This document shows, piece by piece, positions 3,107 through 30,987 of a DNA stretch of 36,496 nucleotides. The notes beneath the pieces were generated by a model. The model was not told the origin of the DNA, made no database searches, and saw nothing but the letters and a program-made list of their open reading frames with translations. Position 1 is the first letter of the stretch. Each line of letters begins with the position of its first letter. Origin of the DNA: Deltaproteobacteria bacterium. GTDB lineage: Bacteria > Myxococcota_A > Polyangia > Haliangiales > Haliangiaceae. The stretch spans positions 1 to 36,496 of the forward strand of contig JACCQV010000586.1 of the NCBI GenBank assembly GCA_013813945.1, read 5' to 3'. A program made the translations under genes and the position numbers.

Positions 3107-3107
3107 C

Positions 3108-5018: not shown

Positions 5019-5098
5019 CAGCGTCGATCTCAGCTCGCACGTAACGCGAGCATTGGGATCCTCGGCTATGCTCCGACACCGCATTTGGCACGCCATCG

Positions 5099-6160
5099 AT
5101 GAGCGCCTCACTTCGCAACATGATCCGGTTTCCGGCCGCCGCCCGCGGCACGGGCTGCGTGATCGTTGGTGAAGTCGCGCAGTCTCACGATGGGAGCCTC
5201 GGACTCGCCCATTCGTTCATCGATGCGATCGCGGACGCCGGCGCCGATGCGGTCAAGTTCCAGACGCACATCGCTGCCGCCGAGAGTACGCCGGGCGAAC
5301 CGTGGCGCGTGAAGTTCAGCAAGCAGGACGCTTCTCGCTACGACTACTGGAAGCGGATGGAGTTCACAGAGACACAATGGACTGGCCTCAGGCAACACGC
5401 CGACGAGAGGGGGCTGCTGTTCCTCAGCTCGCCGTTCTCTTTGGAAGCTGTCGAGTTGTTGAGGCGCCTCGACATGGCTGTCTGGAAGATCGCATCAGGT
5501 GAGGTGAGCAATCTGATGCTTCTTGAGGCCATCGCAAAGACCAAGCGTCCCATGGTGCTGTCGTCGGGTATGAGCAACCTACAGGAGCTCGATGCCGCCG
5601 TGGCACTCGTGCGTGGTGCCGAAGTCCCGTTCGGCGTCATGCAGTGCACGTCCATGTACCCATGTCCTCCCGACAAGGTCGGGCTCGGGCTCCTCGAGAC
5701 CTATCGTGCACGCTACGGCTGCCCGGTTGGTCTCTCCGATCATTCTGGAACCATCTATCCCGGACTCGCAGCAGCCACCCTCGGCTGCGACATCCTGGAA
5801 ATCCACGTCGCGCTTTCTCGCGAGATGTTCGGGCCAGACGTTCCATCATCCGTCACCACGAGCGAGCTGCGCCAGCTGGTCGAAGGCATCCGGTTCATAG
5901 AGGCCATGCGTGGCGGCGACGTGGACAAGGACGCCATGGCCGAGGAGCTCTCGACGGTTCGCGCACTCTTCACGAAGAGTGTTGTGGTCCGACGAGCCCT
6001 GCCTGCCGGAACCGTCCTTCGGCTCGATCACCTCACTGTCAAAAAACCAGGCACCGGCATTCCGGCTGCCAATCTTGCCGACCTCGTCGGCCGCACTCTG
6101 CGGCGCGAGGTCGCGGCGGACACCCTGCTCAGCGTGAGCGATCTGGAGGACGCGAAGTGA
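5099..6160 (+). CDS. neuB: Nonulosonic acid synthase (NeuB/LegI/PseI family; N-acetylneuraminate synthase-like)
   Basis: VIVGEVAQSHDGSLGLAHSFIDAIADAGADAVKFQTH matches the NeuB TIM-barrel N-terminus. The C-terminal region (VVVRRALPAGTVLRLDHLTVKKPGTGIP) looks like a SAF/antifreeze-like domain. Sugar specificity (Neu vs Leg) is not resolvable by eye. Confidence 0.88.
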   Translation: MSASLRNMIRFPAAARGTGCVIVGEVAQSHDGSLGLAHSFIDAIADAGADAVKFQTHIAAAESTPGEPWRVKFSKQDASRYDYWKRMEFTETQWTGLRQHADERGLLFLSSPFSLEAVELLRRLDMAVWKIASGEVSNLMLLEAIAKTKRPMVLSSGMSNLQELDAAVALVRGAEVPFGVMQCTSMYPCPPDKVGLGLLETYRARYGCPVGLSDHSGTIYPGLAAATLGCDILEIHVALSREMFGPDVPSSVTTSELRQLVEGIRFIEAMRGGDVDKDAMAEELSTVRALFTKSVVVRRALPAGTVLRLDHLTVKKPGTGIPAANLADLVGRTLRREVAADTLLSVSDLEDAK

Positions 6161-7314
6161 AGAAGCGCAGCGTCTGCGTCGTGATTACTGCCCGCCCGAG
6201 CTACAGCCGCATCAAGACGGCGCTCACAGCGATCAACAAGCACCCTGCGCTCGAGCTCAAGCTCGTCGTGGCAGCATCCGCACTGCTCGACCGGTACGGA
6301 AACGCCGTCAACGTCATCGAGAAGGACGGATTCAAGATCAACGAACGCGTGTTCATGGTGCTCGAGGGCGAGAGCCCGACATCGATGGCCAAGACCACGG
6401 GCCTTGGAATGATCGAGCTCGCGACGGTGTTCGATAATCTCAAGCCTGACGTCGTCGTGACCGTCGCTGATCGGTACGAGACCCTCGCGACTGCAGTAGC
6501 AGCGTCCTACATGAACTTGCCGCTCGCACACGTGCAGGGCGGCGAGGTCTCGGGCTCGATCGACGAGAAGGTACGCCACGCAGTGACCAAGCTCGCCGAC
6601 CTCCACTTCGTCTCGACGAAGCTGGCCGGAGAGAGAGTCACGAAGATGGGAGAGGATCCTGCGACGGTGTACTGCACGGGGTGCCCATCCATCGATCTCG
6701 CTGCCGAGATTCTCTCGGGTCCTGAGCTAGACTTCGATCCCACCAAGAAGTACGGCGGCGTTGGTCCCGAGCTGGACCTGTCCAAGGGCTATGCCGTCGT
6801 CATGCAGCACCCAGTGACAACCGAGTACCAGCTTGCTCGCCAGCACGTCACCGAGACTCTTCGCGCCTCGCGAGAGGTCGGCATTCCGACATTGTGGTTC
6901 TGGCCAAATGTCGACGCCGGATCCGACGGCACTTCTACAGGCGTGCGCACGTTCCGCGAGAACGAGAAGCCGACAAACATTCGGTTCTTCAAGAACATGG
7001 AACCGACCGACTTTCTGCGGCTGATCTACAACGCACGTTGTCTGATCGGGAACTCCAGTGTCGGTATCCGCGAAGCTTCGTTCCTGGGAGTCCCCGTCGT
7101 CAACGCCGGTTCCCGCCAAGGCGGTCGCGAGCGAGGCGCGAACGTCATCGATGTTGGATATCATCAGAGCGAGATCGCGGGCGCGATGCGTCGACAGCTG
7201 GACCACGGCCGCTACGCGAGCGACCGCACCTATGGGGTAGGCGACGCAGGCACGCGCATTGCCGATCTCCTTGCCGAGGTTCCGCTCAAGGTCGAGAAGC
7301 GGTTGGCCTACTGA
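6157..7314 (+). CDS. neuC: UDP-N-acetylglucosamine 2-epimerase, hydrolysing type (NeuC/LegG-like)
   Basis: VKKRSVCVVITARPSYSRIKTAL..., ADRYETLATAVAASYMNLPLAHVQGGEVSGSIDEKVRHAVTKLADLHF. GTG 6157 overlaps the neuB stop (GTGA). The track ORF start at 5644 is an overlap artefact. Confidence 0.85.
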   Translation: MKKRSVCVVITARPSYSRIKTALTAINKHPALELKLVVAASALLDRYGNAVNVIEKDGFKINERVFMVLEGESPTSMAKTTGLGMIELATVFDNLKPDVVVTVADRYETLATAVAASYMNLPLAHVQGGEVSGSIDEKVRHAVTKLADLHFVSTKLAGERVTKMGEDPATVYCTGCPSIDLAAEILSGPELDFDPTKKYGGVGPELDLSKGYAVVMQHPVTTEYQLARQHVTETLRASREVGIPTLWFWPNVDAGSDGTSTGVRTFRENEKPTNIRFFKNMEPTDFLRLIYNARCLIGNSSVGIREASFLGVPVVNAGSRQGGRERGANVIDVGYHQSEIAGAMRRQLDHGRYASDRTYGVGDAGTRIADLLAEVPLKVEKRLAY

Positions 7315-8009
7315 TGGATGTGCTCGGAGTCGTCACTGCACGCGGCGGCTCGAAGGGCGTACCGCGCAAGAATATCCGGCTCCTTGGCGGCAAGCCGTTG
7401 CTTGCCTGGACCGCCGAGGCCGCGCTGTCTGCGCGAAGCCTGACGAAGGTGATCCTCTCCACCGATGACGAAGAGATCGCAGCGATAGGAAGAGCCGCAC
7501 ACCTCGAGGTCCCGTTCATGCGTCCTCCCGAGCTAGCGCAGGATCGCACGCCGACGTTGGCTGTTCTGCAGCACGCGGTTGGCTGGGTCGAAGCGCAGGG
7601 CGAACGGTATGACGCGGTTTGTCTGCTGCAGCCGACCAGCCCGCTGCGAACGGCAGCGACGATCGATGGTTGCATCGCAAAGCTCGTCGAGACGGGCGCC
7701 GATGCGGTGGTCACCGTGCTCCGTGTCCCCGCCGAGCACAATCCGCACTGGGTGTACTTCGCGTCTGTCGATGGAGACCTGCACCTTGCGACTGGCGAGA
7801 CCGAGCCGATTTCTCGCCGCCAGGATCTCCCTCCCGCCTACCATCGGGAAGGCTCGGTCTACGTCACGCAGAGAGACGTCCTGATCGAGCAGAGCAGCTT
7901 GTACGGTGCGCGCGTGATCGGATACGAGGTCGACGCGTCGACGAGTGTCAACATCGACTCGCTCGAGGACTGGGCCCGTGCCGAGTCCCTCGTGCGGCCT
8001 GGAGCGTGA
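7314..8009 (+). CDS. neuA: Acylneuraminate cytidylyltransferase (CMP-nonulosonate synthetase), single-domain form
   Basis: MDVLGVVTARGGSKGVPRKNIRLLGGKPLLAWT and LLQPTSPLR motifs. 231 aa, so there is no C-terminal esterase domain. The ATG shares 1 nt with the neuC stop (TGATG). Confidence 0.85.
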   Translation: MDVLGVVTARGGSKGVPRKNIRLLGGKPLLAWTAEAALSARSLTKVILSTDDEEIAAIGRAAHLEVPFMRPPELAQDRTPTLAVLQHAVGWVEAQGERYDAVCLLQPTSPLRTAATIDGCIAKLVETGADAVVTVLRVPAEHNPHWVYFASVDGDLHLATGETEPISRRQDLPPAYHREGSVYVTQRDVLIEQSSLYGARVIGYEVDASTSVNIDSLEDWARAESLVRPGA

Positions 8010-8013
8010 CCCG

Positions 8014-9753
8014 ATGTGTGGGATCGCAGCCATCGCAGGTTCGAAGGATGCCGAGCGCAGAGTTGGCAGAATGATCAACCGTCTCCGTCATCGTGGTCCC
8101 GATGGTGAAGGGATCTGGACGGATAACGCAGGCGGAGTGTCGCTCGGTCAGCGCCGGCTGAGCATCCTCGATCTTTCTGTTCAGGGTCGCCAGCCCATGA
8201 CGAGCGCCAATGGCCGCTTCGTACTGACCTACAATGGCGAGGTCTACAACTATCGAGAGCTGCGCTCCGAGCTTGCCGACTATCCGTTTCACTCGCAGAC
8301 CGACACCGAAGTCGTGCTCGCCGCGTGGGTCCGGTGGGGCGAGGCATGCCTGGACCGGCTGATCGGAATGTTCGCCTTCGTGGTCTGGGATACGCACGCG
8401 CGCACGCTGATCGCCGTCCGCGATCGCTTCGGCGTCAAGCCGCTGTATGTCGCCTCGCTCGAAGAGGGTGGGATCGCACTGGCGAGCGAGATCAAGGCGC
8501 TGCACACCGCCGGTGTGCCGGCGACGGCGGATCCCGTCACGTGGTCGACCTATCTCGCAACGGGCCTCCACGAACACTCGACTCGTACGTTCTGGAGCGG
8601 AGTGTCAGCGGTTCCAGCCGGCACGATCTTGCACTGGGAAGCCGGCAAGCCCGCGACGCTGCGCCGGTGGTACGACCTCGCCGCGCGAGTCGGCCAGGAC
8701 GTGGATCCGCGGAGCGAAGCAACGGTTCGCGAGGAATACCTCGGACTCCTCGAGGACAGCGTTCGCCTGAGGTTCCGCTCGGATGTCCCCGTCGGGATCA
8801 ACCTGTCCGGTGGTCTCGACTCGTCGACCCTCCTCGGGGTCGTGCGCGCAGTGCAGGGAGCGGACAGCGATGTGAAAGCATTCACATTCGTCTGTGACGA
8901 CGAGCGATACGATGAGCTGCCCTGGGTGCAAGGCATGCTCGAGCAGACGAAGCACTCCCTCATCACGTGCACTCTGAGGCCTGACGAGGTTCCTGCCCTG
9001 GCAGCGCGCATGATGGTTGCGCAAGAGGAGCCGTTCGGCGGCCTTCCGACGCTCGCATACGGAAAGATCTTCGAGGCTGCGCGTGCCGCCGGAGTGATCG
9101 TGCTCCTCGACGGACAGGGCATGGATGAGCAGTGGGCCGGGTACGATTACTACCGCTCGGTCACAGATGATAAGAAACCCGCGCCGATCGTGCAGGGCGC
9201 GAAAGATCCGGCGGTTCGTCCAGAATGTCTCACCCCTGATCTCAGACGGCTCGTCGAGCCCTTCACTCCTCCGTCTCCGTTTCCTGATCGGCTCCGCAAT
9301 CTCCAGCTACGGGACGCACTACATACCAAGATCCCGCGTGCCCTCCGATTCAACGATCGTGTATCGATGGCTGCATCGACCGAGCTCCGCGAACCCTTCC
9401 TGGACCACCGTCTGTTCGAGCTTGCGATGAAACAGCCCGCCGATCGCAAGATCCGCGGCGACGTTGGCAAGCACCTCCTTCGAGAGATCACGACGAGCCT
9501 GGTTCCCGCGGGACTACGACTCGCGCCCAAGCGGGCATTGCAGACCCCGCAGCGCGAGTGGCTGCGGGGGCCTCTGCGCTCGTGGGCGGGCGAACAGATC
9601 GAGGCAGGTCTGGCGGCTCACTCCGACTGGTTTGACATTCCCGCGGCTCACCACGCGTGGAACAGCTACGTCGCAGGCGAAGGTGACAACAGTTTTTGGG
9701 TCTGGCAGTGGCTCTCTGTGGGTCTCGCCGCGCAACGAGGAGAATTGTCGTGA
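8014..9753 (+). CDS. Asparagine synthase-family glutamine amidotransferase (AsnB-like), copy 2
   Basis: Starts MCGIAAIAG (Cys2 nucleophile). Carries the PP-loop NLSGGLDSS. 579 aa. ATG 8014 lies 4 nt after the neuA stop. Confidence 0.9.
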   Translation: MCGIAAIAGSKDAERRVGRMINRLRHRGPDGEGIWTDNAGGVSLGQRRLSILDLSVQGRQPMTSANGRFVLTYNGEVYNYRELRSELADYPFHSQTDTEVVLAAWVRWGEACLDRLIGMFAFVVWDTHARTLIAVRDRFGVKPLYVASLEEGGIALASEIKALHTAGVPATADPVTWSTYLATGLHEHSTRTFWSGVSAVPAGTILHWEAGKPATLRRWYDLAARVGQDVDPRSEATVREEYLGLLEDSVRLRFRSDVPVGINLSGGLDSSTLLGVVRAVQGADSDVKAFTFVCDDERYDELPWVQGMLEQTKHSLITCTLRPDEVPALAARMMVAQEEPFGGLPTLAYGKIFEAARAAGVIVLLDGQGMDEQWAGYDYYRSVTDDKKPAPIVQGAKDPAVRPECLTPDLRRLVEPFTPPSPFPDRLRNLQLRDALHTKIPRALRFNDRVSMAASTELREPFLDHRLFELAMKQPADRKIRGDVGKHLLREITTSLVPAGLRLAPKRALQTPQREWLRGPLRSWAGEQIEAGLAAHSDWFDIPAAHHAWNSYVAGEGDNSFWVWQWLSVGLAAQRGELS

Positions 9754-10514
9754 AGGTCGTCATTCTTGCCGGCGGACTAGGAACACGAATCAGCGAGGAA
9801 ACCCAGGTCAGGCCGAAGCCCATGGTGGAGCTCGGCGGCAAACCGATCCTTTGGCACATCATGAAGACCTACTCGCACTGGGGCTTCAACGACTTCGTCG
9901 TGTGCCTCGGCTATCGCGGGTACATGATCAAGGAGTACTTCGCGAACTACTTCGTCCACACCTCCGACATGACGTTCCATCTCGCGGAGAACCGCGTGGA
10001 GGTTCACGCGCAACACTCGGAACCATGGCGAGTGACGCTCGTCGACACCGGGGATCAGACTCAGACCGGCGGTCGACTGAAGCGGGTGCAGAAGTATCTG
10101 GGCGACGAGGATTTCTGTTTCACCTACGGCGACGGGTTGAGCAATGTGAATGTGCGTGAGCTGGTCGACTTCCATCGCGCGCAAAACTGCATCGCGACGA
10201 TCACCACGGTTCAACCTCCGGGTCGGTTCGGAATGTTGACGATGGAGGACCGAAAGATCACTGGGTTCCAGGAGAAGCCGCAGGGCGATGGCTCCTGGAT
10301 CAATGGCGGCTTCTTCGTGCTGCGTCCCCAGGCGATCGATTACATCGAGAACGACTCGACGATCTGGGAGCGCCGTCCCCTCGAGAAGCTGGCCGCCGAG
10401 GGCCAGCTGTCAGCGTTCGTCCACAAGGGCTTCTGGCATCCGATGGACCACCTGCGCGACAAGGTCCTCCTCGAGGAGCTATGGGCGTCCGGCAAGGCAC
10501 CATGGAAAGTCTGA
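9750..10514 (+). CDS. rfbF: Glucose-1-phosphate cytidylyltransferase
   Basis: VKVVILAGGLGTRISEETQVRPKPMVELGGKPILWHIMKTYSHWGFNDFVVCLGYRGYMIKEYFANYF is near-diagnostic for RfbF/DdhA. GTG 9750 overlaps the upstream stop (GTGA). Confidence 0.93.
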   Translation: MKVVILAGGLGTRISEETQVRPKPMVELGGKPILWHIMKTYSHWGFNDFVVCLGYRGYMIKEYFANYFVHTSDMTFHLAENRVEVHAQHSEPWRVTLVDTGDQTQTGGRLKRVQKYLGDEDFCFTYGDGLSNVNVRELVDFHRAQNCIATITTVQPPGRFGMLTMEDRKITGFQEKPQGDGSWINGGFFVLRPQAIDYIENDSTIWERRPLEKLAAEGQLSAFVHKGFWHPMDHLRDKVLLEELWASGKAPWKV

Positions 10515-10519
10515 GAGTG

Positions 10520-11575
10520 ATGACCGGCTTCTGGCGGGACAAACGGGTTCTTCTCACGGGGCACACGGGGTTCAAGGGCTCATGGCTCTCGCTGTGGCTC
10601 GCGGAGCTTGGCGCGAAGGTCGTTGGTTTCGCACTCGCGCCCTCGGGTACGCCCAACCTGTTCGATCAGGCGCGCGTCGGCGAACGTGTTCAGTCGATCA
10701 TCGGCGACATCCGCGACCCGGATCACGTGGCGCAGGTGATGCGCGACGCCCAGCCCGAGATCGTGTTGCACCTCGCAGCGCAGTCGCTGGTCCGCACATC
10801 CTACGAAGCTCCGGTCGAGACGTTCGCCGTCAACGTCATGGGCACGACGCATGTTCTCGAAGCGGCGCGGCACGTCGGCTCGGTCCGCTCCGTGGTCGTC
10901 GTCACCACCGACAAGTGTTACGAGAACCGCGAGTGGCTGTGGGGATATCGCGAGGGAGACGCCCTGGGTGGTCACGACCCCTACTCGACGAGCAAGGCAT
11001 GCGTGGAGCTCGTTACCTCGGCGTACCGCCGGTCCTTCTTCACGAAGGGCGATATCGGCGTCGCGTCTGCGCGCGCCGGTAATGTCATCGGCGGCGGCGA
11101 TTGGGCGAAGGACCGGATCGTTCCCGACATGGCGCGTGCCGCGCTTGCTGGCGAATCCGTGCTCGTGCGCAACCCGCGAAGCACACGACCCTGGCAGCAC
11201 GTCCTCGACGTCTTGCACGGATATCTCCTGCTCGCCGAGCGGCTCCACGGCGATCCAGCCCGTCACGCCGATGCGTGGAACTTCGGCCCCGCCGCGGAGG
11301 ACGTTCGCGCTGTCGGCGATCTCGCGGATGCCGTGTGCTCGCGGTGGGGAGGCGGGACGAGATGGCACCATGAAGCCGTCATCCAGCCCCACGAAGCAGG
11401 CGCGCTGACCCTCGACGCGACGAAGGCGAGGACGTTGCTCGGCTGGAGGCCCACGCTCCGGTTCGAACAAGCCGTTCAATGGAGTATCGACTGGTACAAG
11501 GCACATGGCGATCGTTCGGACCTGGCCGCCACGACGCTCGGCCAGATCCAGCGATTTCAGGAGCTCGCGTCGTGA
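10520..11575 (+). CDS. rfbG: CDP-glucose 4,6-dehydratase
   Basis: MTGFWRDKRVLLTGHTGFKGSWLSLWLAELGAKV, TTDKCYEN and YSTSKACVE (YxxxK). I prefer ATG 10520, 5 nt after the rfbF stop. ATG 10481 or 10502 are possible overlapping starts. Confidence 0.9.
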   Translation: MTGFWRDKRVLLTGHTGFKGSWLSLWLAELGAKVVGFALAPSGTPNLFDQARVGERVQSIIGDIRDPDHVAQVMRDAQPEIVLHLAAQSLVRTSYEAPVETFAVNVMGTTHVLEAARHVGSVRSVVVVTTDKCYENREWLWGYREGDALGGHDPYSTSKACVELVTSAYRRSFFTKGDIGVASARAGNVIGGGDWAKDRIVPDMARAALAGESVLVRNPRSTRPWQHVLDVLHGYLLLAERLHGDPARHADAWNFGPAAEDVRAVGDLADAVCSRWGGGTRWHHEAVIQPHEAGALTLDATKARTLLGWRPTLRFEQAVQWSIDWYKAHGDRSDLAATTLGQIQRFQELAS

Positions 11576-12795
11576 ACTGTCGTTTTTGTGAACGTCCTCT
11601 CCGCCACTCCCTGGTCGATCTCGGTATGCAGCCGCTATCGAATTCGTATGTCGACGCGACACGCGCCGAGGCGATGGAGCCCTTCTATCCTCTGCATGCG
11701 CGGGTGTGCGAGGACTGCTTGCTGGTGCAGCTACCGGTGTTCGAAGCCCCGGAGCAGATCTTCACCGACTACGCCTATCTCTCGTCGGTATCGAAGAGCT
11801 GGCTCGAGCACTGCGATCGATTCGCGCAGACGATGCACGACATGCTTCGTCTGGGCAGCAACGACCTGGTGGTCGAGGTGGCGAGCAACGACGGCGGTCT
11901 GCTTCAGTGCTTCCGGACCCGCGATATCCGCGTGCTCGGCATCGAGCCCGCCGCGAACGTAGCCGACATCGCGCGTGCTGCTGGCGTGGACACCGTCGCT
12001 CGGTTCTTTGGTTCCGCGCTTGCGACCGAGCTCAAGTCGAAGGGCACGTCGCCGCGGCTCCTCGTTGGCAATAACGTGCTCGCCCACGTACCAGATCTGA
12101 ACGACTTCGTGCGCGGCCTACAGACCTTGCTCGCGCCGGATGGCGTCTTGTCGATGGAGTTTCCGCACCTGTTGCAGCTGATGCAGGGCAACCAGTTCGA
12201 CACAATCTATCACGAGCACTTTTCGTACCTGTCGCTACTCACGGTCAGTCGCGTGTTCGCACACCACGGGCTCCGCGTGTTCGACGTGGTGACACTGCCG
12301 ACCCATGGTGGATCGATCCGCGTCCTCGCCTGTCAAAGTGGCTTCACCGGGCTGGCCACGACGGAACGGGTTAACAACGTGCTCGAGGTCGAGCGGGCTG
12401 CTGGGCTCACCAGCATGGCGACCTACGAGGCGTTCTCGAAGCAGGTCCATGAGACCAAGCGCAAGTTGCTCGAGTTCCTGATTGCGCAGAGGCGTGCAGG
12501 AAAGCGCATCGTGGGCTACGGCGCGCCCGCGAAGGGAAACACGCTCCTCAACTACTGCGGCATCCGCGAAGACTTCCTCGAGTTCACCGTCGACCGCAGC
12601 CCGCTGAAGCAGGGCAAGTTGCTTCCAGGAACACGCATCCCGGTGCGTGCGCCCGAAGCGTTGACGGACGCGCGACCAGACCTTGTACTCATCTTGCCGT
12701 GGAACATCGAGCGAGAAATCGTCGAACAGCTCGCGTTCATTCGGGAGTGGGGCGGCAAGTTCATCGTGCCTATTCCCGAAGTCCGCGTCGTCTAG
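11572..12795 (+). CDS. NDP-hexose C-methyltransferase-like protein: zinc-ribbon N-domain, SAM methyltransferase core and C-methyltransferase C-terminal domain
   Basis: CRFCE...CEDC Cys pairs at the N-terminus, SAM-binding VVEVASNDGGLL, and C-terminal GYGAPAKGNTLLNYCG. This architecture resembles TylC3/EvaC/NovU-type enzymes. GTG 11572 overlaps the rfbG stop (GTGA). Confidence 0.7.
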   Translation: MNCRFCERPLRHSLVDLGMQPLSNSYVDATRAEAMEPFYPLHARVCEDCLLVQLPVFEAPEQIFTDYAYLSSVSKSWLEHCDRFAQTMHDMLRLGSNDLVVEVASNDGGLLQCFRTRDIRVLGIEPAANVADIARAAGVDTVARFFGSALATELKSKGTSPRLLVGNNVLAHVPDLNDFVRGLQTLLAPDGVLSMEFPHLLQLMQGNQFDTIYHEHFSYLSLLTVSRVFAHHGLRVFDVVTLPTHGGSIRVLACQSGFTGLATTERVNNVLEVERAAGLTSMATYEAFSKQVHETKRKLLEFLIAQRRAGKRIVGYGAPAKGNTLLNYCGIREDFLEFTVDRSPLKQGKLLPGTRIPVRAPEALTDARPDLVLILPWNIEREIVEQLAFIREWGGKFIVPIPEVRVV

Positions 12796-13325
12796 TGAAG
12801 TTCATCCCGGTACCGCTTGCGGGCGCATTCGTGCTCGAGGTCGAGCGTCACGATGACGAGCGCGGCGGGTTTGGCCGTACGTACTGCGCGCGTGAGCTTG
12901 CAGCGCAGGGTCTCGACCCGAGGATCGCGCAGTGCAGCATGTCGTGGAACACGTCGCGCGGCACGCTGCGCGGCATGCACTACCAGGCCAGCCCACACGA
13001 GGAGGCGAAGACCGTGCGAGTCGTGGCCGGTGCGATCTTCGACGTGATGGTCGATCTGCGGCCCGGATCGCCAACCCGCGGCCAGTGGTTCGGGGCCGAG
13101 CTGTCTGCGAGCAACCACCGTGCGCTCTACATTCCAGCAGGCTTCGCGCACGGGTTCCTCACCATGAGTGACCAGAGCGTCGTCCATTACCAGATCAGCG
13201 ACTTCTATGTCCCGGAAGCCAGCCGTGGGTTCCGCTGGGACGATCCCAGCGTCGCAATCGCGTGGCCGTTCCCGCCAACCTGCATCAGCGATCGGGACCG
13301 CGCGCTTCCCGGGCTGGATGTATGA
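12795..13325 (+). CDS. dTDP-4-dehydrorhamnose 3,5-epimerase-family (RmlC-like cupin) NDP-sugar epimerase
   Basis: VKFIPVPLAGAFVLEVERHDDERGGF, RGMHYQ, VMVDLRPGSPTRGQW and IPAGFAHGF. The GTG shares 1 nt with the upstream TAG stop. Confidence 0.85.
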   Translation: MKFIPVPLAGAFVLEVERHDDERGGFGRTYCARELAAQGLDPRIAQCSMSWNTSRGTLRGMHYQASPHEEAKTVRVVAGAIFDVMVDLRPGSPTRGQWFGAELSASNHRALYIPAGFAHGFLTMSDQSVVHYQISDFYVPEASRGFRWDDPSVAIAWPFPPTCISDRDRALPGLDV

Positions 13326-13990
13326 CCATGGTCCCGTCGGAGCTCGCGGGCTGGATCATCTGGGGCGCCGCCGGCCACGCTCGGGTGATCCGCGAGGCCC
13401 TCGGGGACCGGGCACCTGCGCTGCTTGCCACGTTCGATAACGCCGAGGGTGTGCCTGCGCCGTTTGCCGACGTTCCGCTTCATCACGGAACCCCCGGCTT
13501 CGCCGCCTGGCGACGCACGGCGAGCGGACCGATCGGGTTCGTCGTCGCGATCGGTGGTGCACACGGTTTGACCCGGTGCAGGCTCCACGACTGGCTCGTG
13601 ACCGAGGGACTGACTCCGGTCACCGTGATTCATCGCACCGCCTTCGTAGCGGCGACCGCGAAGGTCGGTGCCGGGAGCCATGTCCTGGCGCAAGCAGCGG
13701 TCTGTGTGGATGTCGAGCTCGGGCCGCAGTGCATCATCAACACAGGTGCGAGCGTCGATCACGAATGTCGCCTCGGTGCCGGCGTTCATGTCGCGCCCGG
13801 CGCCCATCTCGCAGGACTCGTCGACGTCGGCGACCATGTGTTCATCGGTCTCGGCGCGAACATCCTCCCCCGGATCCGGATCGGCGCAGGTGCAATCATC
13901 GGTGCCGGAGCAGTAGTCACGCACGACGTTTCCGCCGGCGCCACGATGGTGGGTATCCCAGCTCGCCCGATCGAAAAACCTAGCTCATGA
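13322..13990 (+). CDS. NeuD/PglD/VioB-family sugar acetyltransferase (left-handed beta-helix)
   Basis: N-terminal IIWGAAGHARVIREAL Rossmann-like subdomain, followed by hexapeptide repeats (GASVDHECRLGAGVHVAPGAHLAGLVDVGDHVFIGLGANILPRIRIGAGAIIGAGAVV). ATGA overlap with the epimerase stop. Confidence 0.8.
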   Translation: MTMVPSELAGWIIWGAAGHARVIREALGDRAPALLATFDNAEGVPAPFADVPLHHGTPGFAAWRRTASGPIGFVVAIGGAHGLTRCRLHDWLVTEGLTPVTVIHRTAFVAATAKVGAGSHVLAQAAVCVDVELGPQCIINTGASVDHECRLGAGVHVAPGAHLAGLVDVGDHVFIGLGANILPRIRIGAGAIIGAGAVVTHDVSAGATMVGIPARPIEKPSS

Positions 13991-15117
13991 CAACACCCCG
14001 CATCCCGATCGCAGGCCCCTGGATCACCCAGCGAGAAATCGATTACGTGGCGGATGCGACCGCCAACGCTTGGTACGGATCCGCGAACCTCTATCACGAC
14101 AAGTTCGAACGGGCGTTTGCAGGACACCTCGGCGTTCGGCACGCGATGGCATTGCCATCGTGTACGTCCGGATTGCACCTCGCGCTTGCCGCTCGCGGCA
14201 TTGGCCCAGGAGATGAGGTGATCGTCCCGGACATCACCTGGATCGCGAGCTGCGCGCCGATCACGTACGTGGGTGCGACGCCAGTGTTCGCGGATGTCGA
14301 CCCCGATACCTGGTGCATCTCTGCGAGCTCGATCGAGAAGTGTCTGACGCCAAGGACGCGAGCACTGATCCCCGTCGACCTCTACGGTCATCCCGCCGAC
14401 TACGACAGCATCAACGAGCTTGCGCGTGCGCATGATCTGTTCGTGATCGAGGACGCGGCCGAAGCCGTCGGTGCCACGTACCGCGGCCGACCCGCGGGCA
14501 GTCTCGCCCACGTCGGCGTGTTCAGCTTCCACGGTTCCAAGACGTTGACGACCGGCGAAGGCGGACTGCTCGCGACCGACGACTCAGCGTTGTACGAACG
14601 CGCCGCCTTCCTCCGTGATCACGGGCGCAAACCCGGAGATGTGTTCTTCTTCAATCACGAGGTCGCGTTCAAGTACAAGATGAGCAGTATGCAGGCCGCG
14701 CTCGGCCTCGCGCAGCTCGAGCGCCTGGACGAGCTGATGACGCGCAAGCGTCAGATCTTCGCGTGGTATCGCGAGCGCCTGTCAGGCATCTCCGGTCTCT
14801 CGCTGAATTACCAGGCACCCGGCACCACGAACGCCTACTGGATGATCACAGTGCTCTGGGAGCCGGGGCTGCTTCCGGACAAACGAAAGACCATGGAGCT
14901 GCTGGCCGAGCGCGGAATTGATACCCGGCCCTTCTTCCATCCGTTGAGTGCAATTCCGGCCTACGCAGGTTCGGTCGAGGCTCAGCGCGCAGTTCGCGAG
15001 AACACCGTTGCGCACTCGCTGACAAACCGGGCCTTGAACTTACCTTCAGCGCTCACCCTCGAGGAGGCGCACGTCGATCGAGTATGTGACGCGCTGCTCG
15101 CAGTTCTCCGCAGCTAG
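13987..15117 (+). CDS. DegT/DnrJ/EryC1/StrS-family PLP-dependent NDP-sugar aminotransferase
   Basis: 376 aa. The active-site block VFSFHGSKTLTTGEGG retains the Schiff-base Lys, so this is an aminotransferase rather than an E1-type 3-dehydrase. ATGA overlap with the upstream gene. Confidence 0.9.
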   Translation: MTTPRIPIAGPWITQREIDYVADATANAWYGSANLYHDKFERAFAGHLGVRHAMALPSCTSGLHLALAARGIGPGDEVIVPDITWIASCAPITYVGATPVFADVDPDTWCISASSIEKCLTPRTRALIPVDLYGHPADYDSINELARAHDLFVIEDAAEAVGATYRGRPAGSLAHVGVFSFHGSKTLTTGEGGLLATDDSALYERAAFLRDHGRKPGDVFFFNHEVAFKYKMSSMQAALGLAQLERLDELMTRKRQIFAWYRERLSGISGLSLNYQAPGTTNAYWMITVLWEPGLLPDKRKTMELLAERGIDTRPFFHPLSAIPAYAGSVEAQRAVRENTVAHSLTNRALNLPSALTLEEAHVDRVCDALLAVLRS

Positions 15118-16343
15118 CGCTGGGTGAGGCGCGCTACTCGGCGCCTGAGCGCGCCAAGCGCTCGCTGGGCGATGCCGCGGGGCGAGAGATAGCCACCTTC
15201 GAACAGCCGCACGATGGTGTACGCCAGCGTCGCCGCACCATGAACATCGCTGACCGCGAAGTCATCGCCGTCGAGCTTCATGGTCATGTGCCCCAAGCTG
15301 AGGCCGAGATCCGAGTCGGTGGATTTGACGTTCAGAAACGGGTGTGCGGCGATGACCGCATCTGCCGCCTGGCCGCCCCGTCGCATCATCTCTCGCACGC
15401 CTTCGACAACCTGCCCGTACACGACCTCCGAGCTCACGGCGGCGTCTCTCATCATGTGCTCGGTCAACAGCTCCAGAGGGATCTCCGGGTTCCTCATTCC
15501 GCCTGGCACGTGCTCGCGCGCTTGCTGGTACGCCTCTGCGACGTACACGGGAGAGGATGGGACGAGCACATAGTCCGGATGAAATGGATGATTCCCTTCG
15601 TTCAGGAACTGCTCGCGCGGCGAGTGCTTGTTCGTCTCGACAGCGCCGAAGCTGACCCCCGTGCTGTGCTTGGAGAGGCCGTTGAGCCGGTAGGGGCGCT
15701 CGCTCCAGACGAACCGGTCGATCGCCATCGTGACCGAGAGCGCGGAATACAGATCTGGATTCAGACTGTGGAAGAACTGCAAAGAGCCACCGGTCGCTCG
15801 CCGGATTGCATCGCGACTGAGCACGCCCCAGTAGAGAGACGGCAGACGGGTGTACGGCTCCTGGAAGCCGACGACCTTGGTCAGCCACTCCGTCGCGGAT
15901 TCGACGCGCCACCCGGAGCGAAGCGGAAGCCGTAGAGTATTCGGACGTAACCCGCCGACGGACCCGGGCCAGTAGTACTTGGCCTCGCGCCAGGCAATCG
16001 CTTCGCAGTCCGTCTCCTCGAGGATCCTGACGATGTCGCGGATGGCGTTTGGCAACAACGCATCGTCGTCGCCGAGCGTGAGCACGTAGCCATCGTCGAC
16101 GTGGCTCAGCGCGAACTCCCAGTTCTGGGACATCCCAAGTCGACGTTCTGTCTTCACGCGGCGAATACGAGGATCTGCGGCCGCTGCAACGACCTCCGCC
16201 GTACGGTCTTCGCTGTGGTTGTCACTGACCAGGATATCGAGCTGGTCATAATTTTGCGACACGCAGCTCTTCAGCGTGCAGTGCAGGGTGTCTGCACGGT
16301 TCCTGGTGGGAATCAGGATCGTTACGCGACGGCTCTTCATCAT
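15114..16343 (-). CDS. Glycosyltransferase family 2 (409 aa, with a long C-terminal extension)
   Basis: VTILIPTRNRADTLHCTLKSCVSQNYDQLDILVSDNHSEDRT and the DXD-like LTLGDDDALLP. The ATG overlaps the wzx stop (ATGA). Confidence 0.85.
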   Translation of the reverse strand: MMKSRRVTILIPTRNRADTLHCTLKSCVSQNYDQLDILVSDNHSEDRTAEVVAAAADPRIRRVKTERRLGMSQNWEFALSHVDDGYVLTLGDDDALLPNAIRDIVRILEETDCEAIAWREAKYYWPGSVGGLRPNTLRLPLRSGWRVESATEWLTKVVGFQEPYTRLPSLYWGVLSRDAIRRATGGSLQFFHSLNPDLYSALSVTMAIDRFVWSERPYRLNGLSKHSTGVSFGAVETNKHSPREQFLNEGNHPFHPDYVLVPSSPVYVAEAYQQAREHVPGGMRNPEIPLELLTEHMMRDAAVSSEVVYGQVVEGVREMMRRGGQAADAVIAAHPFLNVKSTDSDLGLSLGHMTMKLDGDDFAVSDVHGAATLAYTIVRLFEGGYLSPRGIAQRALGALRRRVARLTQR

Positions 16344-18714: not shown

Positions 18715-18823
18715 ATCCCAAGAGTGCCCCCGATCCGAGGAACCCGGATGTGACGGCCGCCGGGCGGAAGGGATTGGAGACCTTGTCGTCGGAGAGCTGA
18801 AGGCATACGATTCGCGACCGCAA
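18715..18823. promoter_or_regulatory. Divergent intergenic region between block B and block C; presumed bidirectional promoter region
   Basis: This 109-bp non-coding gap lies between two divergently oriented starts, if GTG 18824 is the right-hand start. I recognised no consensus promoter elements. Confidence 0.25.
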
Positions 18824-27651: not shown

Positions 27652-27661
27652 GCGAGATCCG

Positions 27662-30965: not shown

Positions 30966-30987
30966 GTCGCGTTCTGCCTCGTCGCAC

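What the first reader, a model, noticed from the sequence alone, without database searches (positions are those of the whole stretch)
9750..15117. CDP-hexose cassette without 3-deoxygenation genes: predicted C-methyl-branched, aminated, N-acetylated 6-deoxyhexose
Seen:
- Six genes are chained by GTGA, TAGTG and ATGA overlaps.
- They are RfbF, RfbG, a three-module C-methyltransferase (CRFCE...CEDC zinc ribbon, SAM core, GYGAPAKGNTLLNYCG module), an RmlC-like cupin (RGMHYQ), a NeuD/PglD-type acetyltransferase and a DegT aminotransferase.
- The aminotransferase keeps the Schiff-base Lys (FSFHGSKTLTTGEGG).

Established:
- RfbF and RfbG make CDP-4-keto-6-deoxy-D-glucose.
- The characterised fates of that intermediate that I know of are mainly 3,6-dideoxyhexoses.
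- Those routes use E1 (a DegT homologue with His in place of the Lys) and the E3 reductase.
- TylC3/EvaC/NovU-type enzymes C-methylate NDP-4-ketohexoses.

Inference:
- Neither E1 nor E3 is present here.
- The cassette would therefore give a CDP-activated, C3- or C5-methyl-branched 4-acetamido-4,6-dideoxyhexose.
- That chemistry is usually seen on dTDP-sugars in antibiotic pathways, not on CDP-sugars in cell-surface polymers.
Basis: partly seen in the sequence, partly recalled or inferred. Interest (0 to 1): 0.7.

Follow-up and report, generated by a model that had tools for sequence, protein, structure and literature searches.

The report
CDP-linked branched acetamido-sugar gene cassette
Six tightly packed genes in a bacterial surface-polysaccharide locus most likely build a CDP-activated, C-methyl-branched, N-acetylated amino-deoxysugar; the route recurs in many bacterial phyla, but I found no paper that describes it.

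Summary
Six co-directional genes lie at 9750-15117:
- RfbF and RfbG, both above NCBIfam equivalog cut-offs
- a TylC3/MtmC-family sugar C-methyltransferase with its catalytic residues
- an RmlC-family epimerase
- a NeuD/PglD/PerB-type N-acetyltransferase
- a DegT aminotransferase that keeps the Schiff-base lysine

Four of the five internal junctions overlap. RfbF/RfbG is a 2-5 nt gap.

The window has one DegT gene. It has no E1, no E3 and no Gmd.

- The closest solved relatives of the aminotransferase and acetyltransferase are GDP-perosamine synthase Per and PerB. These act on 2-hydroxy 4-keto-6-deoxyhexoses. PglE/PglD and PseC score lower.
- Of 11 sampled contexts of close aminotransferase relatives (59-75% identity), 10 lie inside CDP-glucose/C-methyltransferase cassettes. 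Several have no nonulosonic-acid genes nearby.
- More distant versions of the module (aminotransferase 44-45%) occur in cultured Peteryoungia desertarenae and on the Brachyspira hyodysenteriae plasmid.

The four-gene core (RfbF-RfbG-C-MT-RmlC) is common and is often followed by a reductase instead.

The likely product is CDP-4-acetamido-4,6-dideoxy-3-C-methyl-L-hexose, which resembles N-acyl-kansosamine. The methylated carbon and the stereochemistry are inferred.

This is a new variant of a known kind, of moderate interest.

The parts
9750..10514 (+). rfbF/ddhA: glucose-1-phosphate cytidylyltransferase, which makes CDP-D-glucose
   Evidence: TIGR02623 equivalog at 453.7 bits (cut-off 300.25) and PF00483. 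The GTG start overlaps the upstream asnB stop as GTGA.
10520..11575 (+). [quoted passage not shown] The start is ATG 10520 or GTG 10517.
   Evidence: TIGR02622 equivalog at 488.4 bits (cut-off 278.45). The N-terminus matches homologues such as L046. A GGAAAG sequence lies 11-16 nt upstream of ATG 10520.
11572..12795 (+). SAM-dependent NDP-hexose C-methyltransferase of the TylC3/MtmC/TcaB9 family, with a Zn ribbon, a SAM core and a C-terminal domain
   Evidence: PF08421 7.8e-23, PF13489 and PF08484 5.1e-64. PDB: MtmC 4rv9 303 bits, KijD1 260, TcaB9 225. The TcaB9 active-site motif Y-x-E-H (window Y213/E215/H216), the upstream His and the Tyr are conserved.
12795..13325 (+). RmlC-family 4-keto-6-deoxyhexose epimerase, predicted to act as a 5-epimerase or 3,5-epimerase on the CDP-4-ketosugar
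   Evidence: TIGR01221 at 170.1 bits (cut-off 155.75) and PF00908 1.3e-61. Nearest solved relatives are dTDP RmlC enzymes at 145 bits, with NovW at 107 and EvaD at 79. His62 (RGMHYQ), Lys72, Tyr132 and Asp168 are present in the sequence. I read these by eye against the RmlC active site as I remember it.
13322..13990 (+). Left-handed beta-helix N-acetyltransferase of the NeuD/PglD/VioB/PerB family, predicted to N-acetylate the 4-amino group
   Evidence: TIGR03570 at 175.6 bits (cut-off 160.8). The nearest solved relative is perosamine N-acetyltransferase PerB 4ea7 at 99 bits, ahead of PglB(Ng) 82, VioB 73 and PglD 68. A His aligns with the His of PerB's 'vdHD' stretch, which I take to be its catalytic His; the adjacent Asp is Glu here.
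13987..15117 (+). PLP-dependent DegT-family sugar 4-aminotransferase (Per-like) that keeps the Schiff-base lysine
   Evidence: PF01041 5.4e-111. It is below the LegC (296 vs 420) and PseC (262 vs 423) cut-offs. Per 3bn1 scores 318 bits, is alignable end to end, and the Lys in FSFHGSK aligns with the Lys in Per's FSFFGNK. E1 scores 123 and ColD 105. Close relatives are embedded in CDP/C-MT cassettes.
15114..16343 (-). GT2 glycosyltransferase convergent on the cassette; candidate transferase for the branched sugar (inferred)
   Evidence: PF00535. A GT2 gene follows the aminotransferase directly in L046, L082/L083, L086, L087, L088 and the P0112 contig. In L081 it lies one gene further on. Detectable similarity to the window GT2: 57% in L081, 28-29% in L046 and L088; the GT2 of L082 and L086 was not detected.

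Best explanation
The six genes form one nucleotide-sugar pathway inside a Wzx/Wzy-type surface-polysaccharide locus. The organism is probably a myxobacterium.

Proposed steps:
1. RfbF activates glucose-1-phosphate as CDP-D-glucose.
2. RfbG converts it to CDP-4-keto-6-deoxy-D-glucose.
3. While the 4-keto group is still present, the TylC3-type methyltransferase adds a methyl group from SAM to a carbon next to the ketone, most likely C3.
4. The RmlC-type enzyme epimerises the remaining acidic position, C5, giving an L-series sugar.
5. The Per-like PLP aminotransferase replaces the 4-keto group with an amino group. This is why the cassette needs no 4-ketoreductase.
6. The PerB-like acetyltransferase N-acetylates that amine.

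Predicted product: CDP-4-acetamido-4,6-dideoxy-3-C-methyl-L-hexose. If the C-methylation inverts C3 as TylC3 does, this would be L-manno or L-talo. It would then be the N-acetyl, 2-O-demethyl analogue of N-acyl-kansosamine.

The adjacent GT2 probably transfers it into the repeat unit.

What is shown: gene identities, catalytic residues, absence of E1/E3/Gmd, and conserved synteny. What is inferred: substrate nucleotide for steps 3-6, reaction order, methylated carbon, stereochemistry and acyl donor.
For: Equivalog-level RfbF and RfbG.

The C-methyltransferase has three domains, conserved catalytic residues, and solved relatives above 30 bits that are exclusively 3-C-methyltransferases.

The RmlC family cut-off is passed.

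The aminotransferase keeps the lysine and is closest to the 4-aminotransferase Per. The acetyltransferase is closest to PerB.

The window holds one DegT gene and no E1, E3 or Gmd.

Four of five junctions overlap, which suggests co-translation.

Synteny:
- L081 has the identical ten-gene order, with the aminotransferase at 72-73% identity.
- L082/L083, L084 and L086 carry RfbF, a dehydratase, C-MT, RmlC, a hexapeptide acyltransferase and the aminotransferase, with no NeuB/C/A within the flank. In L084 the acyltransferase is a different hexapeptide protein.
- L085 and L046 carry the cassette with methyltransferases in place of the acetyltransferase.
- L088 and the P0112 contig carry it next to an ABC transporter.
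- Cultured Peteryoungia desertarenae carries RfbF-RfbG-RmlC-C-MT-AT-AcT.
- The Brachyspira hyodysenteriae plasmid carries RfbF, RmlC, C-MT, AT, AcT and an SDR.

A Ralstonia flagellar island has RfbF-RfbG-RmlC-AT, so the pairing of Per-like aminotransferases with CDP-glucose genes is general.

In related myxobacterial loci (L008, L038) the same four-gene core is followed by an SDR reductase instead. This fits aminotransferase plus acetyltransferase as an alternative way to consume the 4-keto group.

The neighbouring NeuC-like protein is closer to the GNE-type UDP-GlcNAc 2-epimerase (241 bits) than to LegG (175 bits). The nonulosonic-acid module therefore needs no aminotransferase.
Against: - No biochemistry exists for any member, and nucleotide specificity of steps 3-6 is inferred from gene neighbourhood only.
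- The aminotransferase is alignable end to end with a GDP-sugar enzyme (about half of aligned positions identical, by eye). Its best NCBIfam hit is the LegC family, although below the cut-off.
- A PglF/WbpM-like UDP-GlcNAc 4,6-dehydratase (30988-32901) and NeuB/C/A genes are in the same window, so a second substrate cannot be excluded.
- One of the 11 aminotransferase-clade contexts (L087) has no C-methyltransferase within 8 kb upstream.
- C5-methyltransferases such as NovU have no solved structure, so C3 versus C5 was not resolved.
- The acetyltransferase was absent from all 80 GTDB loci chosen by C-methyltransferase similarity.
Confidence: 0.72

Rival explanations
1. The aminotransferase and acetyltransferase belong to a legionaminic-acid or bacillosamine route. 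In this reading the PglF-like dehydratase (30988-32901) makes UDP-4-keto-6-deoxy-GlcNAc. The aminotransferase and acetyltransferase convert it to UDP-diNAcBac, and the upstream NeuC/NeuB/NeuA homologues turn that into a CMP-nonulosonate. The CDP cassette would then be only four genes and would need a reductase encoded elsewhere.
For: All the required gene types are in the window. The best NCBIfam hit of the aminotransferase is the LegC family at 296 bits. NeuB scores below the Neu5Ac-synthase cut-off, 300 against 400. NeuB-NeuC-NeuA-AsnB sits directly upstream in the same operon-like array, and also in L081.
Against: - The aminotransferase is below the LegC and PseC cut-offs.
- Per (318 bits) and PerB (99 bits) outscore PglE (154), PseC (127) and PglD (68).
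- Aminotransferase and acetyltransferase homologues stay inside CDP/C-MT cassettes where no NeuB/C/A lies nearby: L082/83, L086 and L090.
- In L088 the nonulosonic-acid module has its own PglD-like acetyltransferase.
- The NeuC-like protein is closer to the GNE-type UDP-GlcNAc 2-epimerase than to LegG. The trio can therefore make a Neu5Ac-type acid without any aminotransferase.
Confidence: 0.06
2. The aminotransferase and acetyltransferase are an ordinary Per/PerB pair. They would make GDP-N-acetylperosamine from GDP-4-keto-6-deoxymannose supplied by a Gmd elsewhere in the genome, and their place next to the CDP cassette would be coincidental.
For: Their closest solved structures are Caulobacter Per and PerB. 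JGI names many homologues 'perosamine synthetase'.
Against: - There are no Gmd or ManB/ManC genes in the 36.5-kb window.
- The aminotransferase is translationally coupled to the cassette.
- Relatives at 59-75% identity lie within CDP-glucose/C-MT cassettes in 10 of 11 contexts. These span Acidobacteriota, Verrucomicrobiota and Burkholderiales by record name, plus probable Myxococcota. More distant relatives (44-45%) lie in cassettes in Rhizobiaceae and Spirochaetota.
- Without them the cassette has no enzyme to resolve the 4-keto group.
Confidence: 0.07
3. The pathway is the same, but the methyltransferase acts at C5 as NovU does, and the RmlC-like enzyme acts as a 3-epimerase as NovW does. 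The product would be a 5-C-methyl (gem-dimethyl, noviose-like) 4-acetamido sugar.
For: The pairing of an RmlC-family enzyme with a C-methyltransferase is also the noviose logic (established knowledge, from memory). NovW is a detectable relative of the cupin at 107 bits. No test here separates C3 from C5.
Against: - All solved relatives above 30 bits are C3-methyltransferases, and the C3-proton-abstracting His/Glu/Tyr set of TcaB9 is conserved.
- Known CDP-linked or CDP-gene-associated branched surface sugars are 3-C-methyl L-sugars. Examples are vinelose (from memory) and kansosamine, whose M. kansasii LOS locus lists a G1P cytidylyltransferase, an SDR, a rhamnose epimerase and a methyltransferase (PMC4403928).
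- Actinobacterial variants lack RmlC altogether (L039).
Confidence: 0.12

Closest known systems
CDP-3,6-dideoxyhexose pathways of Salmonella and Yersinia (RfbF/DdhA, RfbG/DdhB, E1/DdhC, E3/DdhD; paratose, abequose, tyvelose, ascarylose)
   Same: The first two enzymes and the intermediate CDP-4-keto-6-deoxy-D-glucose are the same. Both enzymes pass the NCBIfam equivalog cut-offs.
   Different: There is no E1 (its solved structure 3bb8 scores only 123 bits against the window aminotransferase) and no E3. The ketosugar is C-methylated, epimerised, aminated and acetylated instead of 3-deoxygenated.
dTDP branched-sugar pathways of antibiotic producers (TylC3/EryBIII/MtmC for mycarose; EvaC/EvaD for epivancosamine; TcaB9/KijD1; NovU/NovW for noviose)
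   Same: The three-domain C-methyltransferase family is the same, with conserved catalytic residues. It is likewise paired with an RmlC-family epimerase.
   Different: The nucleotide is CDP rather than dTDP. There are no 2-deoxygenation genes. The context is a cell-surface polysaccharide locus, not a secondary-metabolite cluster. Identity to MtmC is modest (303 bits).
GDP-perosamine / GDP-N-acetylperosamine pathway (Per and PerB of Caulobacter crescentus; also E. coli O157 and Vibrio cholerae O1)
   Same: These are the closest solved homologues of the aminotransferase (318 bits) and the acetyltransferase (99 bits). The chemistry matches: C4 transamination of a 2-hydroxy-4-keto-6-deoxyhexose followed by N-acetylation.
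   Different: There is no Gmd or other GDP-mannose gene. The aminotransferase clade is embedded in CDP-glucose/C-methyltransferase cassettes. The substrate is predicted to be branched and CDP-linked.
N-acyl-kansosamine (4-acylamino-4,6-dideoxy-2-O-methyl-3-C-methyl-L-mannose) of Mycobacterium kansasii lipooligosaccharides
   Same: The predicted sugar skeleton is the same. The M. kansasii LOS locus lists a glucose-1-phosphate cytidylyltransferase, an epimerase/dehydratase, a rhamnose epimerase and a methyltransferase (PMC4403928). Many related cassettes add a CmcI-type methyltransferase that could supply an O-methyl group.
   Different: The kansosamine structure is from memory, not from the paper. 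Its acyl group is 2-methoxypropionyl, not acetyl. The window cassette has no CmcI-type methyltransferase. The paper found assigns no genes or enzymes to kansosamine.
CDP-vinelose (CDP-6-deoxy-3-C-methyl-2-O-methyl-L-talose) of Azotobacter vinelandii, and the uncharacterised ddhA-ddhB-'NDP-hexose 3-C-methyltransferase' core on Sinorhizobium meliloti pSymB
   Same: Both involve a CDP-linked 3-C-methyl 6-deoxy-L-hexose. The RfbF-RfbG-C-MT-RmlC core is found in 31 of 80 top GTDB loci and on pSymB together with a CmcI-like methyltransferase, an SDR and an acyltransferase.
   Different: Those loci resolve the 4-keto group with a reductase. Here an aminotransferase plus acetyltransferase does so. Vinelose is recalled from memory, and no paper was retrievable.
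Virenose (6-deoxy-3-C-methylgulose) of Coxiella burnetii LPS, with the TylCIII-like CBU_0691
   Same: It is a precedent for a TylC3-family C-methyltransferase serving an LPS sugar (PMC3539893).
   Different: Only TDP or GDP routes have been proposed, in silico. There is no amination.

Membership tests
Glucose-1-phosphate cytidylyltransferase (RfbF/DdhA) | Scores above the TIGR02623 equivalog cut-off over the full length | tested here: met
   453.7 bits against a cut-off of 300.25, residues 1-254 of 254
CDP-glucose 4,6-dehydratase (RfbG/DdhB) | Scores above the TIGR02622 equivalog cut-off over the full length | tested here: met
   488.4 bits against a cut-off of 278.45. The dTDP-glucose dehydratase model scores only 111 bits.
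CDP-3,6-dideoxyhexose pathway | Presence of E1 (a DegT homologue with His replacing the PLP lysine) and the E3 reductase | tested here: not met
   The window has a single DegT gene, and it keeps the Lys. No Fer2 or FNR-type protein appears among the ORFs scanned.
NDP-hexose C-methyltransferase (TylC3/MtmC/TcaB9/KijD1) | N-terminal Zn-ribbon domain (PF08421), SAM core and C-terminal domain (PF08484) | tested here: met
   PF08421 7.8e-23, PF13489 1.1e-11 and PF08484 5.1e-64
NDP-hexose C-methyltransferase (TylC3/MtmC/TcaB9/KijD1) | Conserved catalytic residues (TcaB9 Tyr76, His181, Tyr222, Glu224, His225; numbering from memory) | tested here: met
   The alignment to 3ndi shows window YaY, nvlaH and YhEH at the corresponding positions.
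NDP-hexose C-methyltransferase (TylC3/MtmC/TcaB9/KijD1) | Regiochemistry (C3 versus C5) and nucleotide specificity | not testable with these tools
   No C5-methyltransferase reference (NovU, CloU, CouU) was available. This needs enzymology and NMR.
RmlC-family 3,5-epimerase | Above the TIGR01221 cut-off, with the His/Lys/Tyr/Asp catalytic set | tested here: met
   170.1 bits against a cut-off of 155.75. His62, Lys72, Tyr132 and Asp168 were read directly from the translation against RmlC residues recalled from memory.
LegC / PseC aminotransferases (nonulosonic-acid pathways) | Score above the TIGR04181 or TIGR03588 cut-off | tested here: not met
   LegC 295.7 against a cut-off of 420. PseC 262.4 against a cut-off of 423.5.
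DegT/DnrJ/EryC1 sugar aminotransferases (true transaminases) | PF01041 fold with the Schiff-base lysine | tested here: met
   PF01041 5.4e-111. The Lys in FSFHGSK aligns with the Lys in Per's FSFFGNK.
GDP-perosamine synthase (Per) | Genomic association with GDP-mannose 4,6-dehydratase, and use of a GDP-sugar | tested here: not met
   No Gmd is in the window. Clade members sit next to RfbF/RfbG-type genes in 10 of 11 contexts. The substrate itself was not tested.
NeuD/PglD/VioB/PerB N-acetyltransferases | Above the TIGR03570 cut-off, with a conserved catalytic His | tested here: met
   175.6 bits against a cut-off of 160.8. A His aligns with the His of PerB's 'vdHD' stretch, and the adjacent Asp is Glu here.
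Kansosamine-type sugar (3-C-methyl-4-acylamino-4,6-dideoxy-L-hexose) | Chemical structure of the product | not testable with these tools
   This is an inference from enzyme families only. It needs LC-MS and NMR of the reconstituted product or the native polymer.

The most novel reading that the evidence does not exclude
The cassette is repeatedly linked with nonulosonic-acid genes: in the window, in L081, on a P0006 contig and in L088. This linkage could be functional rather than incidental. In the most novel reading, the CDP-branched amino sugar would be released and condensed with PEP by the adjacent NeuB homologue. The result would be a C-methyl-branched 9-deoxy-nonulosonic acid, activated by the adjacent CMP-transferase. 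The conserved AsnB-like amidotransferase between the two modules would then act on that product.
Probability: 0.03. Interest if true: 0.85.

Novelty: new variant of a known kind. Interest (0 to 1): 0.45.

Why it matters
Every enzyme family here is well known, but the combination is not. In the paper library I could search, I found no description of a CDP-linked 4-amino sugar, nor of a CDP-dependent C-methyl-branching route.

The module is nevertheless widespread. Of 11 close aminotransferase relatives sampled, 10 sit in such cassettes. These span Acidobacteriota, Verrucomicrobiota and Burkholderiales by record name, plus probable Myxococcota. More distant versions occur in Rhizobiaceae and on the Brachyspira hyodysenteriae plasmid.

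Confirmation would have four consequences:
- It would give a genetic and enzymatic basis for kansosamine-like surface sugars.
- It would correct the widespread 'perosamine synthetase' annotation of this aminotransferase clade.
- It would add CDP-specific C-methyltransferase, aminotransferase and acetyltransferase activities to the glycoengineering toolbox.
- It would show that the 4-keto intermediate of one conserved four-gene core is resolved either by a reductase (vinelose-like) or by an aminotransferase plus acetyltransferase.

Tried and rejected
**Legionaminic-acid sharing.** I considered that the aminotransferase and acetyltransferase serve a legionaminic route and rejected it as the main reading. 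The reasons are the family cut-offs, the ranking of solved relatives, synteny without nonulosonic-acid genes, and the GNE-like NeuC.

**Ordinary GDP-perosamine pair.** Rejected as the main reading. There is no Gmd, and the aminotransferase is consistently embedded in CDP cassettes.

**Acetyltransferase in the GTDB loci.** I searched for it in the 80 GTDB loci retrieved with the methyltransferase and found none. It was found only when contexts were retrieved through the aminotransferase. The window's methyltransferase is of the subtype usually paired with a reductase (55-65% identity). Methyltransferases in most aminotransferase-bearing cassettes are only 41-46% identical, so the window cassette looks mosaic.

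**Literature searches.**
- 'vinelose', CDP-4-amino, CDP-4-acetamido and CDP-3-C-methyl terms returned nothing.
- The three-term search 'CDP-glucose / C-methyltransferase / aminotransferase' returned only an irrelevant paper.
- A Clostridium flagellar-glycan paper mentioning CDP-4-keto-6-deoxyglucose concerns paratose.

**C3 versus C5 methylation.** This could not be decided because no C5-methyltransferase reference sequence was available.

**Phylogeny.** A formal tree of the aminotransferase against E1, ColD, PglE and LegC was not built, because reference sequences were not retrievable as files. The ranking of bit scores against solved structures was used instead.

**Not used.** Structure prediction, RNA tools and viral collections were judged uninformative for this question.

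Full report
**Observation**

The window is about 63% G+C. It is almost entirely a surface-polysaccharide locus. Between 9750 and 15117 lie six co-directional genes.

RfbF starts at GTG 9750 and overlaps the stop of an upstream AsnB-like gene as GTGA. The junctions rfbG/methyltransferase (GTGA), methyltransferase/cupin (TAGTG), cupin/acetyltransferase (ATGA) and acetyltransferase/aminotransferase (ATGA) all overlap. RfbF/RfbG is a 2-5 nt gap when RfbG starts at GTG 10517 or ATG 10520, which is where its homologues start. The 'chain of overlaps' is therefore true for four of the five internal junctions.

Profile searches confirm every gene call:

| Gene | Model | Score | Cut-off |
|---|---|---|---|
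| RfbF | TIGR02623 | 453.7 bits | 300 |
| RfbG | TIGR02622 | 488.4 bits | 278 |
| Methyltransferase | PF08421 + class I core + PF08484 | 7.8e-23 / 1.1e-11 / 5.1e-64 | - |
| Cupin | TIGR01221 RmlC | 170 bits | 156 |
| Acetyltransferase | TIGR03570 | 175.6 bits | 161 |
| Aminotransferase | PF01041 | 5.4e-111 | - |

**Active sites**

- Aligned to TcaB9, the methyltransferase keeps the Y-x-E-H motif, the upstream His and the Tyr that form the C3-deprotonating site of the solved 3-C-methyltransferases. All of its solved relatives above 30 bits are 3-C-methyltransferases: MtmC 303 bits, KijD1 260, TcaB9 225.
- The aminotransferase aligns end to end with Caulobacter perosamine synthase, about half of aligned positions identical by eye. 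Its Lys in FSFHGSK lies opposite the Lys in Per's FSFFGNK.
- The acetyltransferase aligns with PerB. A His lies opposite the His of PerB's 'vdHD' stretch, and the adjacent Asp is Glu here.
- The cupin carries His62, Lys72, Tyr132 and Asp168. This matches the RmlC catalytic set as I remember it (sequence).

**What is absent**

tblastn with the aminotransferase finds only itself in the window. Pfam and NCBIfam scans of the other ORFs I picked out (mostly those of 200 aa or more) show no E1, no ferredoxin-reductase-type E3, no Gmd and no second DegT.

The rest of the window encodes:
- a GalE-like SDR, a class I methyltransferase and a GT2
- two AsnB-like amidotransferases
- NeuB/NeuC/NeuA homologues
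- a GT2 and Wzx convergent on the cassette
- a polysaccharide deacetylase and a GNAT
- a UDP-sugar dehydrogenase and two further SDRs
- GT4s and a KpsS/KpsC-like protein
- an unannotated membrane protein that I read as Wzy-like
- a WbpL-like initiating transferase and a PglF/WbpM-like UDP-GlcNAc 4,6-dehydratase
- a Wza-like exporter and an O-antigen-ligase-domain protein

**The key rival**

NeuC, NeuB and NeuA lie immediately upstream, and a PglF-like dehydratase lies downstream. The aminotransferase and acetyltransferase could therefore belong to a legionaminic-acid route rather than the CDP route. Four lines of evidence argue against it.

1. The aminotransferase falls below the LegC (296 vs 420) and PseC (262 vs 423) cut-offs.
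2. Among solved structures, the aminotransferase ranks Per 318 bits far above PglE 154, WbpE 148, PseC 127, E1 123 and ColD 105. The acetyltransferase ranks PerB 99 above PglB(Ng) 82, VioB 73 and PglD 68. Both therefore resemble enzymes that act on 2-hydroxy 4-keto-6-deoxyhexoses.
3. The NeuC homologue is closer to the GNE-type UDP-GlcNAc 2-epimerase (241 bits) than to LegG (175 bits). NeuB is closest to meningococcal NeuB. The trio looks like a self-sufficient Neu5Ac-type module.
4. Synteny, described next.

**Comparative genomics**

*Loci retrieved through the methyltransferase.* A scan of GTDB species representatives with the methyltransferase gave at least 590 relatives. The best were Polyangiaceae and Kofleriaceae MAGs at 62-65% identity, so the window is probably myxobacterial.

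Among the 80 best loci:
- 50 have an RfbF of at least 45% identity
- 31 have RfbF, RfbG, methyltransferase and RmlC together, 27 of them colinear within 5 kb
- 6 have an aminotransferase of at least 40% identity
- none has the acetyltransferase
- none has NeuB, NeuC or NeuA

In 10 loci the gene after RmlC is a roughly 300-aa SDR. These include the myxobacterial L008 and L038. S. meliloti pSymB carries rfbG, the methyltransferase, a CmcI-like methyltransferase, an SDR, an acyltransferase and rfbC. The four-gene core is thus common and usually ends with a reductase. I read that as a vinelose-like 6-deoxy-3-C-methylhexose route.

*Loci retrieved through the aminotransferase.* More than 120 clusters have at least 62% identity, and JGI names many of them 'perosamine synthetase'. 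Contexts sampled:

| Locus | Aminotransferase identity | Arrangement |
|---|---|---|
| L081 | 72-73% | Repeats the window's order NeuB-NeuC-NeuA-AsnB-RfbF-RfbG-MT-RmlC-AcT-AT, with GT2 and Wzx convergent |
| P0006 contigs | 75% | MT-RmlC-AcT-AT-RfbG kept as one block and RfbF-AsnB-NeuA as another |
| L082/L083 | 65-66% | RfbF, dehydratase, MT, RmlC, hexapeptide acyltransferase, CmcI-type MT, AT, GT2; no nonulosonic-acid genes in the flanks |
| L086 (Pedosphaera) | 64-65% | Same as L082/L083 |
| L084 (Terriglobales) | 65-66% | RfbF, SDR, MT, RmlC, a different hexapeptide acyltransferase, WbqC, AT; no nonulosonic-acid genes in the flanks |
| L085 | 63-65% | Methyltransferases replace the acetyltransferase |
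| L046 (Burkholderiales) | 59% | Methyltransferases replace the acetyltransferase |
| L088 | 63-64% | Cassette next to an ABC transporter, followed by a legionaminic-type module with its own PglD-like acetyltransferase |
| P0112 contig | 63% | Cassette next to an ABC transporter, with WbqC |
| L087 | 64% | No methyltransferase within 8 kb upstream (the one exception) |

*Annotated plasmid records add cultured examples.*
- Peteryoungia desertarenae carries RfbF-RfbG-RmlC-MT-AT-AcT followed by a CmcI-like methyltransferase.
- The Brachyspira hyodysenteriae plasmid carries RfbF, a radical SAM protein, RmlC, the methyltransferase (spanning the record origin), AT, AcT and an SDR.
- A Ralstonia flagellar island carries RfbF-RfbG-RmlC-AT with a GNAT and WbqC.

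The Per-like aminotransferase clade is therefore a regular partner of CDP-glucose genes. The six-function module is separable from nonulosonic-acid genes.

**Mechanism**

C-methylation and RmlC-type epimerisation both need the 4-keto group to acidify the neighbouring C-H. They must therefore precede transamination (inference from the established mechanisms of TylC3/TcaB9 and RmlC). Transamination consumes the ketone, which explains why the cassette has no reductase. N-acetylation follows.

TylC3 is reported to invert C3 (noted in PMC3539893). If this methyltransferase does the same and the epimerase inverts C5, the intermediate has the L-lyxo 4-ulose configuration. That configuration underlies both L-talo vinelose and L-manno kansosamine.

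The product would then be CDP-4-acetamido-4,6-dideoxy-3-C-methyl-L-hexose. This step is inference. A C5-methyl (noviose-like) outcome is not excluded.

A GT2 gene directly follows the aminotransferase in six related loci and lies one gene further on in L081. The convergent window GT2 is the candidate transferase.

**Comparison with known systems**

The cassette shares its first two steps with the 3,6-dideoxyhexose pathways but fails their defining feature, E1/E3. It shares the C-methyltransferase and epimerase logic with dTDP antibiotic-sugar pathways, but uses CDP and sits in a surface-polysaccharide locus. It shares the aminotransferase/acetyltransferase pair with GDP-N-acetylperosamine synthesis, but lacks Gmd.

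The closest natural product is N-acyl-kansosamine of M. kansasii LOS. That LOS locus lists a glucose-1-phosphate cytidylyltransferase, an SDR, a rhamnose epimerase and a methyltransferase (PMC4403928), but no enzyme assignment exists.

I found no paper describing a CDP-4-amino or CDP-C-methyl sugar pathway.

**Verdict**

The aminated, acetylated branch does, however, appear uncharacterised and widespread. This is a new variant of a known kind, with interest about 0.45.

Noticed in passing
window 5099-8009 (+): NeuB-, NeuC- and NeuA-like genes sit directly upstream in the same array. NeuC is closer to the human GNE epimerase domain (241 bits) than to LegG (175 bits). NeuB (300 bits) and NeuA are below their NCBIfam equivalog cut-offs, so the nonulosonic acid made is uncertain. 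The branched-sugar cassette is linked with nonulosonic-acid modules in the window, L081, a P0006 contig and L088.
   Followed up: partly
window 3108-5018 and 8014-9753 (+): There are two AsnB-type glutamine amidotransferases. The second is wedged between NeuA and RfbF with a GTGA overlap. The NeuA-AsnB-RfbF adjacency is kept in L081 and on a rearranged P0006 contig, and AsnB homologues also lie near cassettes in L046, L012, L022, L026 and L069. The substrate is unknown. It may be amidation of a uronic or nonulosonic acid carboxylate.
   Followed up: no
window 26683-32901 (-): This stretch holds a PglF/WbpM-like UDP-GlcNAc 4,6-dehydratase, a WbpL/WecA-like initiating transferase, an unannotated membrane protein that I read as Wzy-like, a GT4 and an SDR. 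It looks like a QuiNAc/FucNAc-type or bacillosamine-type initiating-sugar module of a Wzx/Wzy pathway.
   Followed up: partly
window 25233-26657 (-): This protein has a weak Capsule_synth (KpsS/KpsC-like) domain. It is a possible Kdo or nonulosonic-acid transferase in a locus that otherwise looks Wzx/Wzy-dependent.
   Followed up: no
window 17866-18846 (-) and 18779-19546 (+): Two sizeable ORFs between Wzx and the polysaccharide deacetylase have no Pfam match. The minus-strand one has a lipoprotein-like N-terminus.
   Followed up: no
window 1086-2165 (+): A 359-aa class I SAM methyltransferase with a long N-terminal extension lies at the start of the locus. It could be an O-methyltransferase for the polymer. 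Related cassettes instead carry a CmcI-type methyltransferase between the acetyltransferase and the aminotransferase.
   Followed up: no
L014 3895-5310 and 11 other GTDB loci (e.g. L021, L027, L031, L045, L047): In 12 of 44 loci the gene right after RmlC encodes a roughly 450-aa DUF4910/DUF2172/M28-like protein with a C-terminal winged helix. It is a conserved partner of the CDP/C-methyltransferase core, and its function is unknown.
   Followed up: partly
L039 7017-11224, L058, L077: Actinobacterial variant in Mycobacterium sp., Rhodococcus marinonascens and an Actinomycetota MAG: SDR, aminotransferase (49-53% identity), RfbF and C-methyltransferase, with no RmlC and no recognisable RfbG. L039 also has a possible dioxygenase-like ORF (not profile-checked). 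This suggests a D-series branched amino sugar.
   Followed up: partly
L092 (B. hyodysenteriae plasmid pBhyoB78), around the record origin: The C-methyltransferase homologue appears to span the start of the circular record (tblastn hit at 31817-32581, 63% coverage). It is missing from the PLSDB gene table. Two radical SAM genes and several ATP-grasp ligases accompany the module on this plasmid, which I recall has been linked to virulence.
   Followed up: partly
L091 (Ralstonia wenshanensis p56D2) 4427-13647: A CDP-glucose/RmlC/Per-like aminotransferase set with a phytanoyl-CoA dioxygenase, a methyltransferase, a GNAT, WbqC and two GTs is inserted between flagellar genes (fliE...fliS). It is probably a flagellin glycosylation island that uses a CDP-amino sugar.
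   Followed up: no
L090 (Peteryoungia desertarenae plasmid) 2353-11744: Two divergent copies of the CDP/C-methyltransferase core sit back to back. One ends with a GT2 and has neither reductase nor aminotransferase. The other ends with the aminotransferase, an unannotated acetyltransferase ORF (11133-11744) and a CmcI-like methyltransferase.
   Followed up: partly
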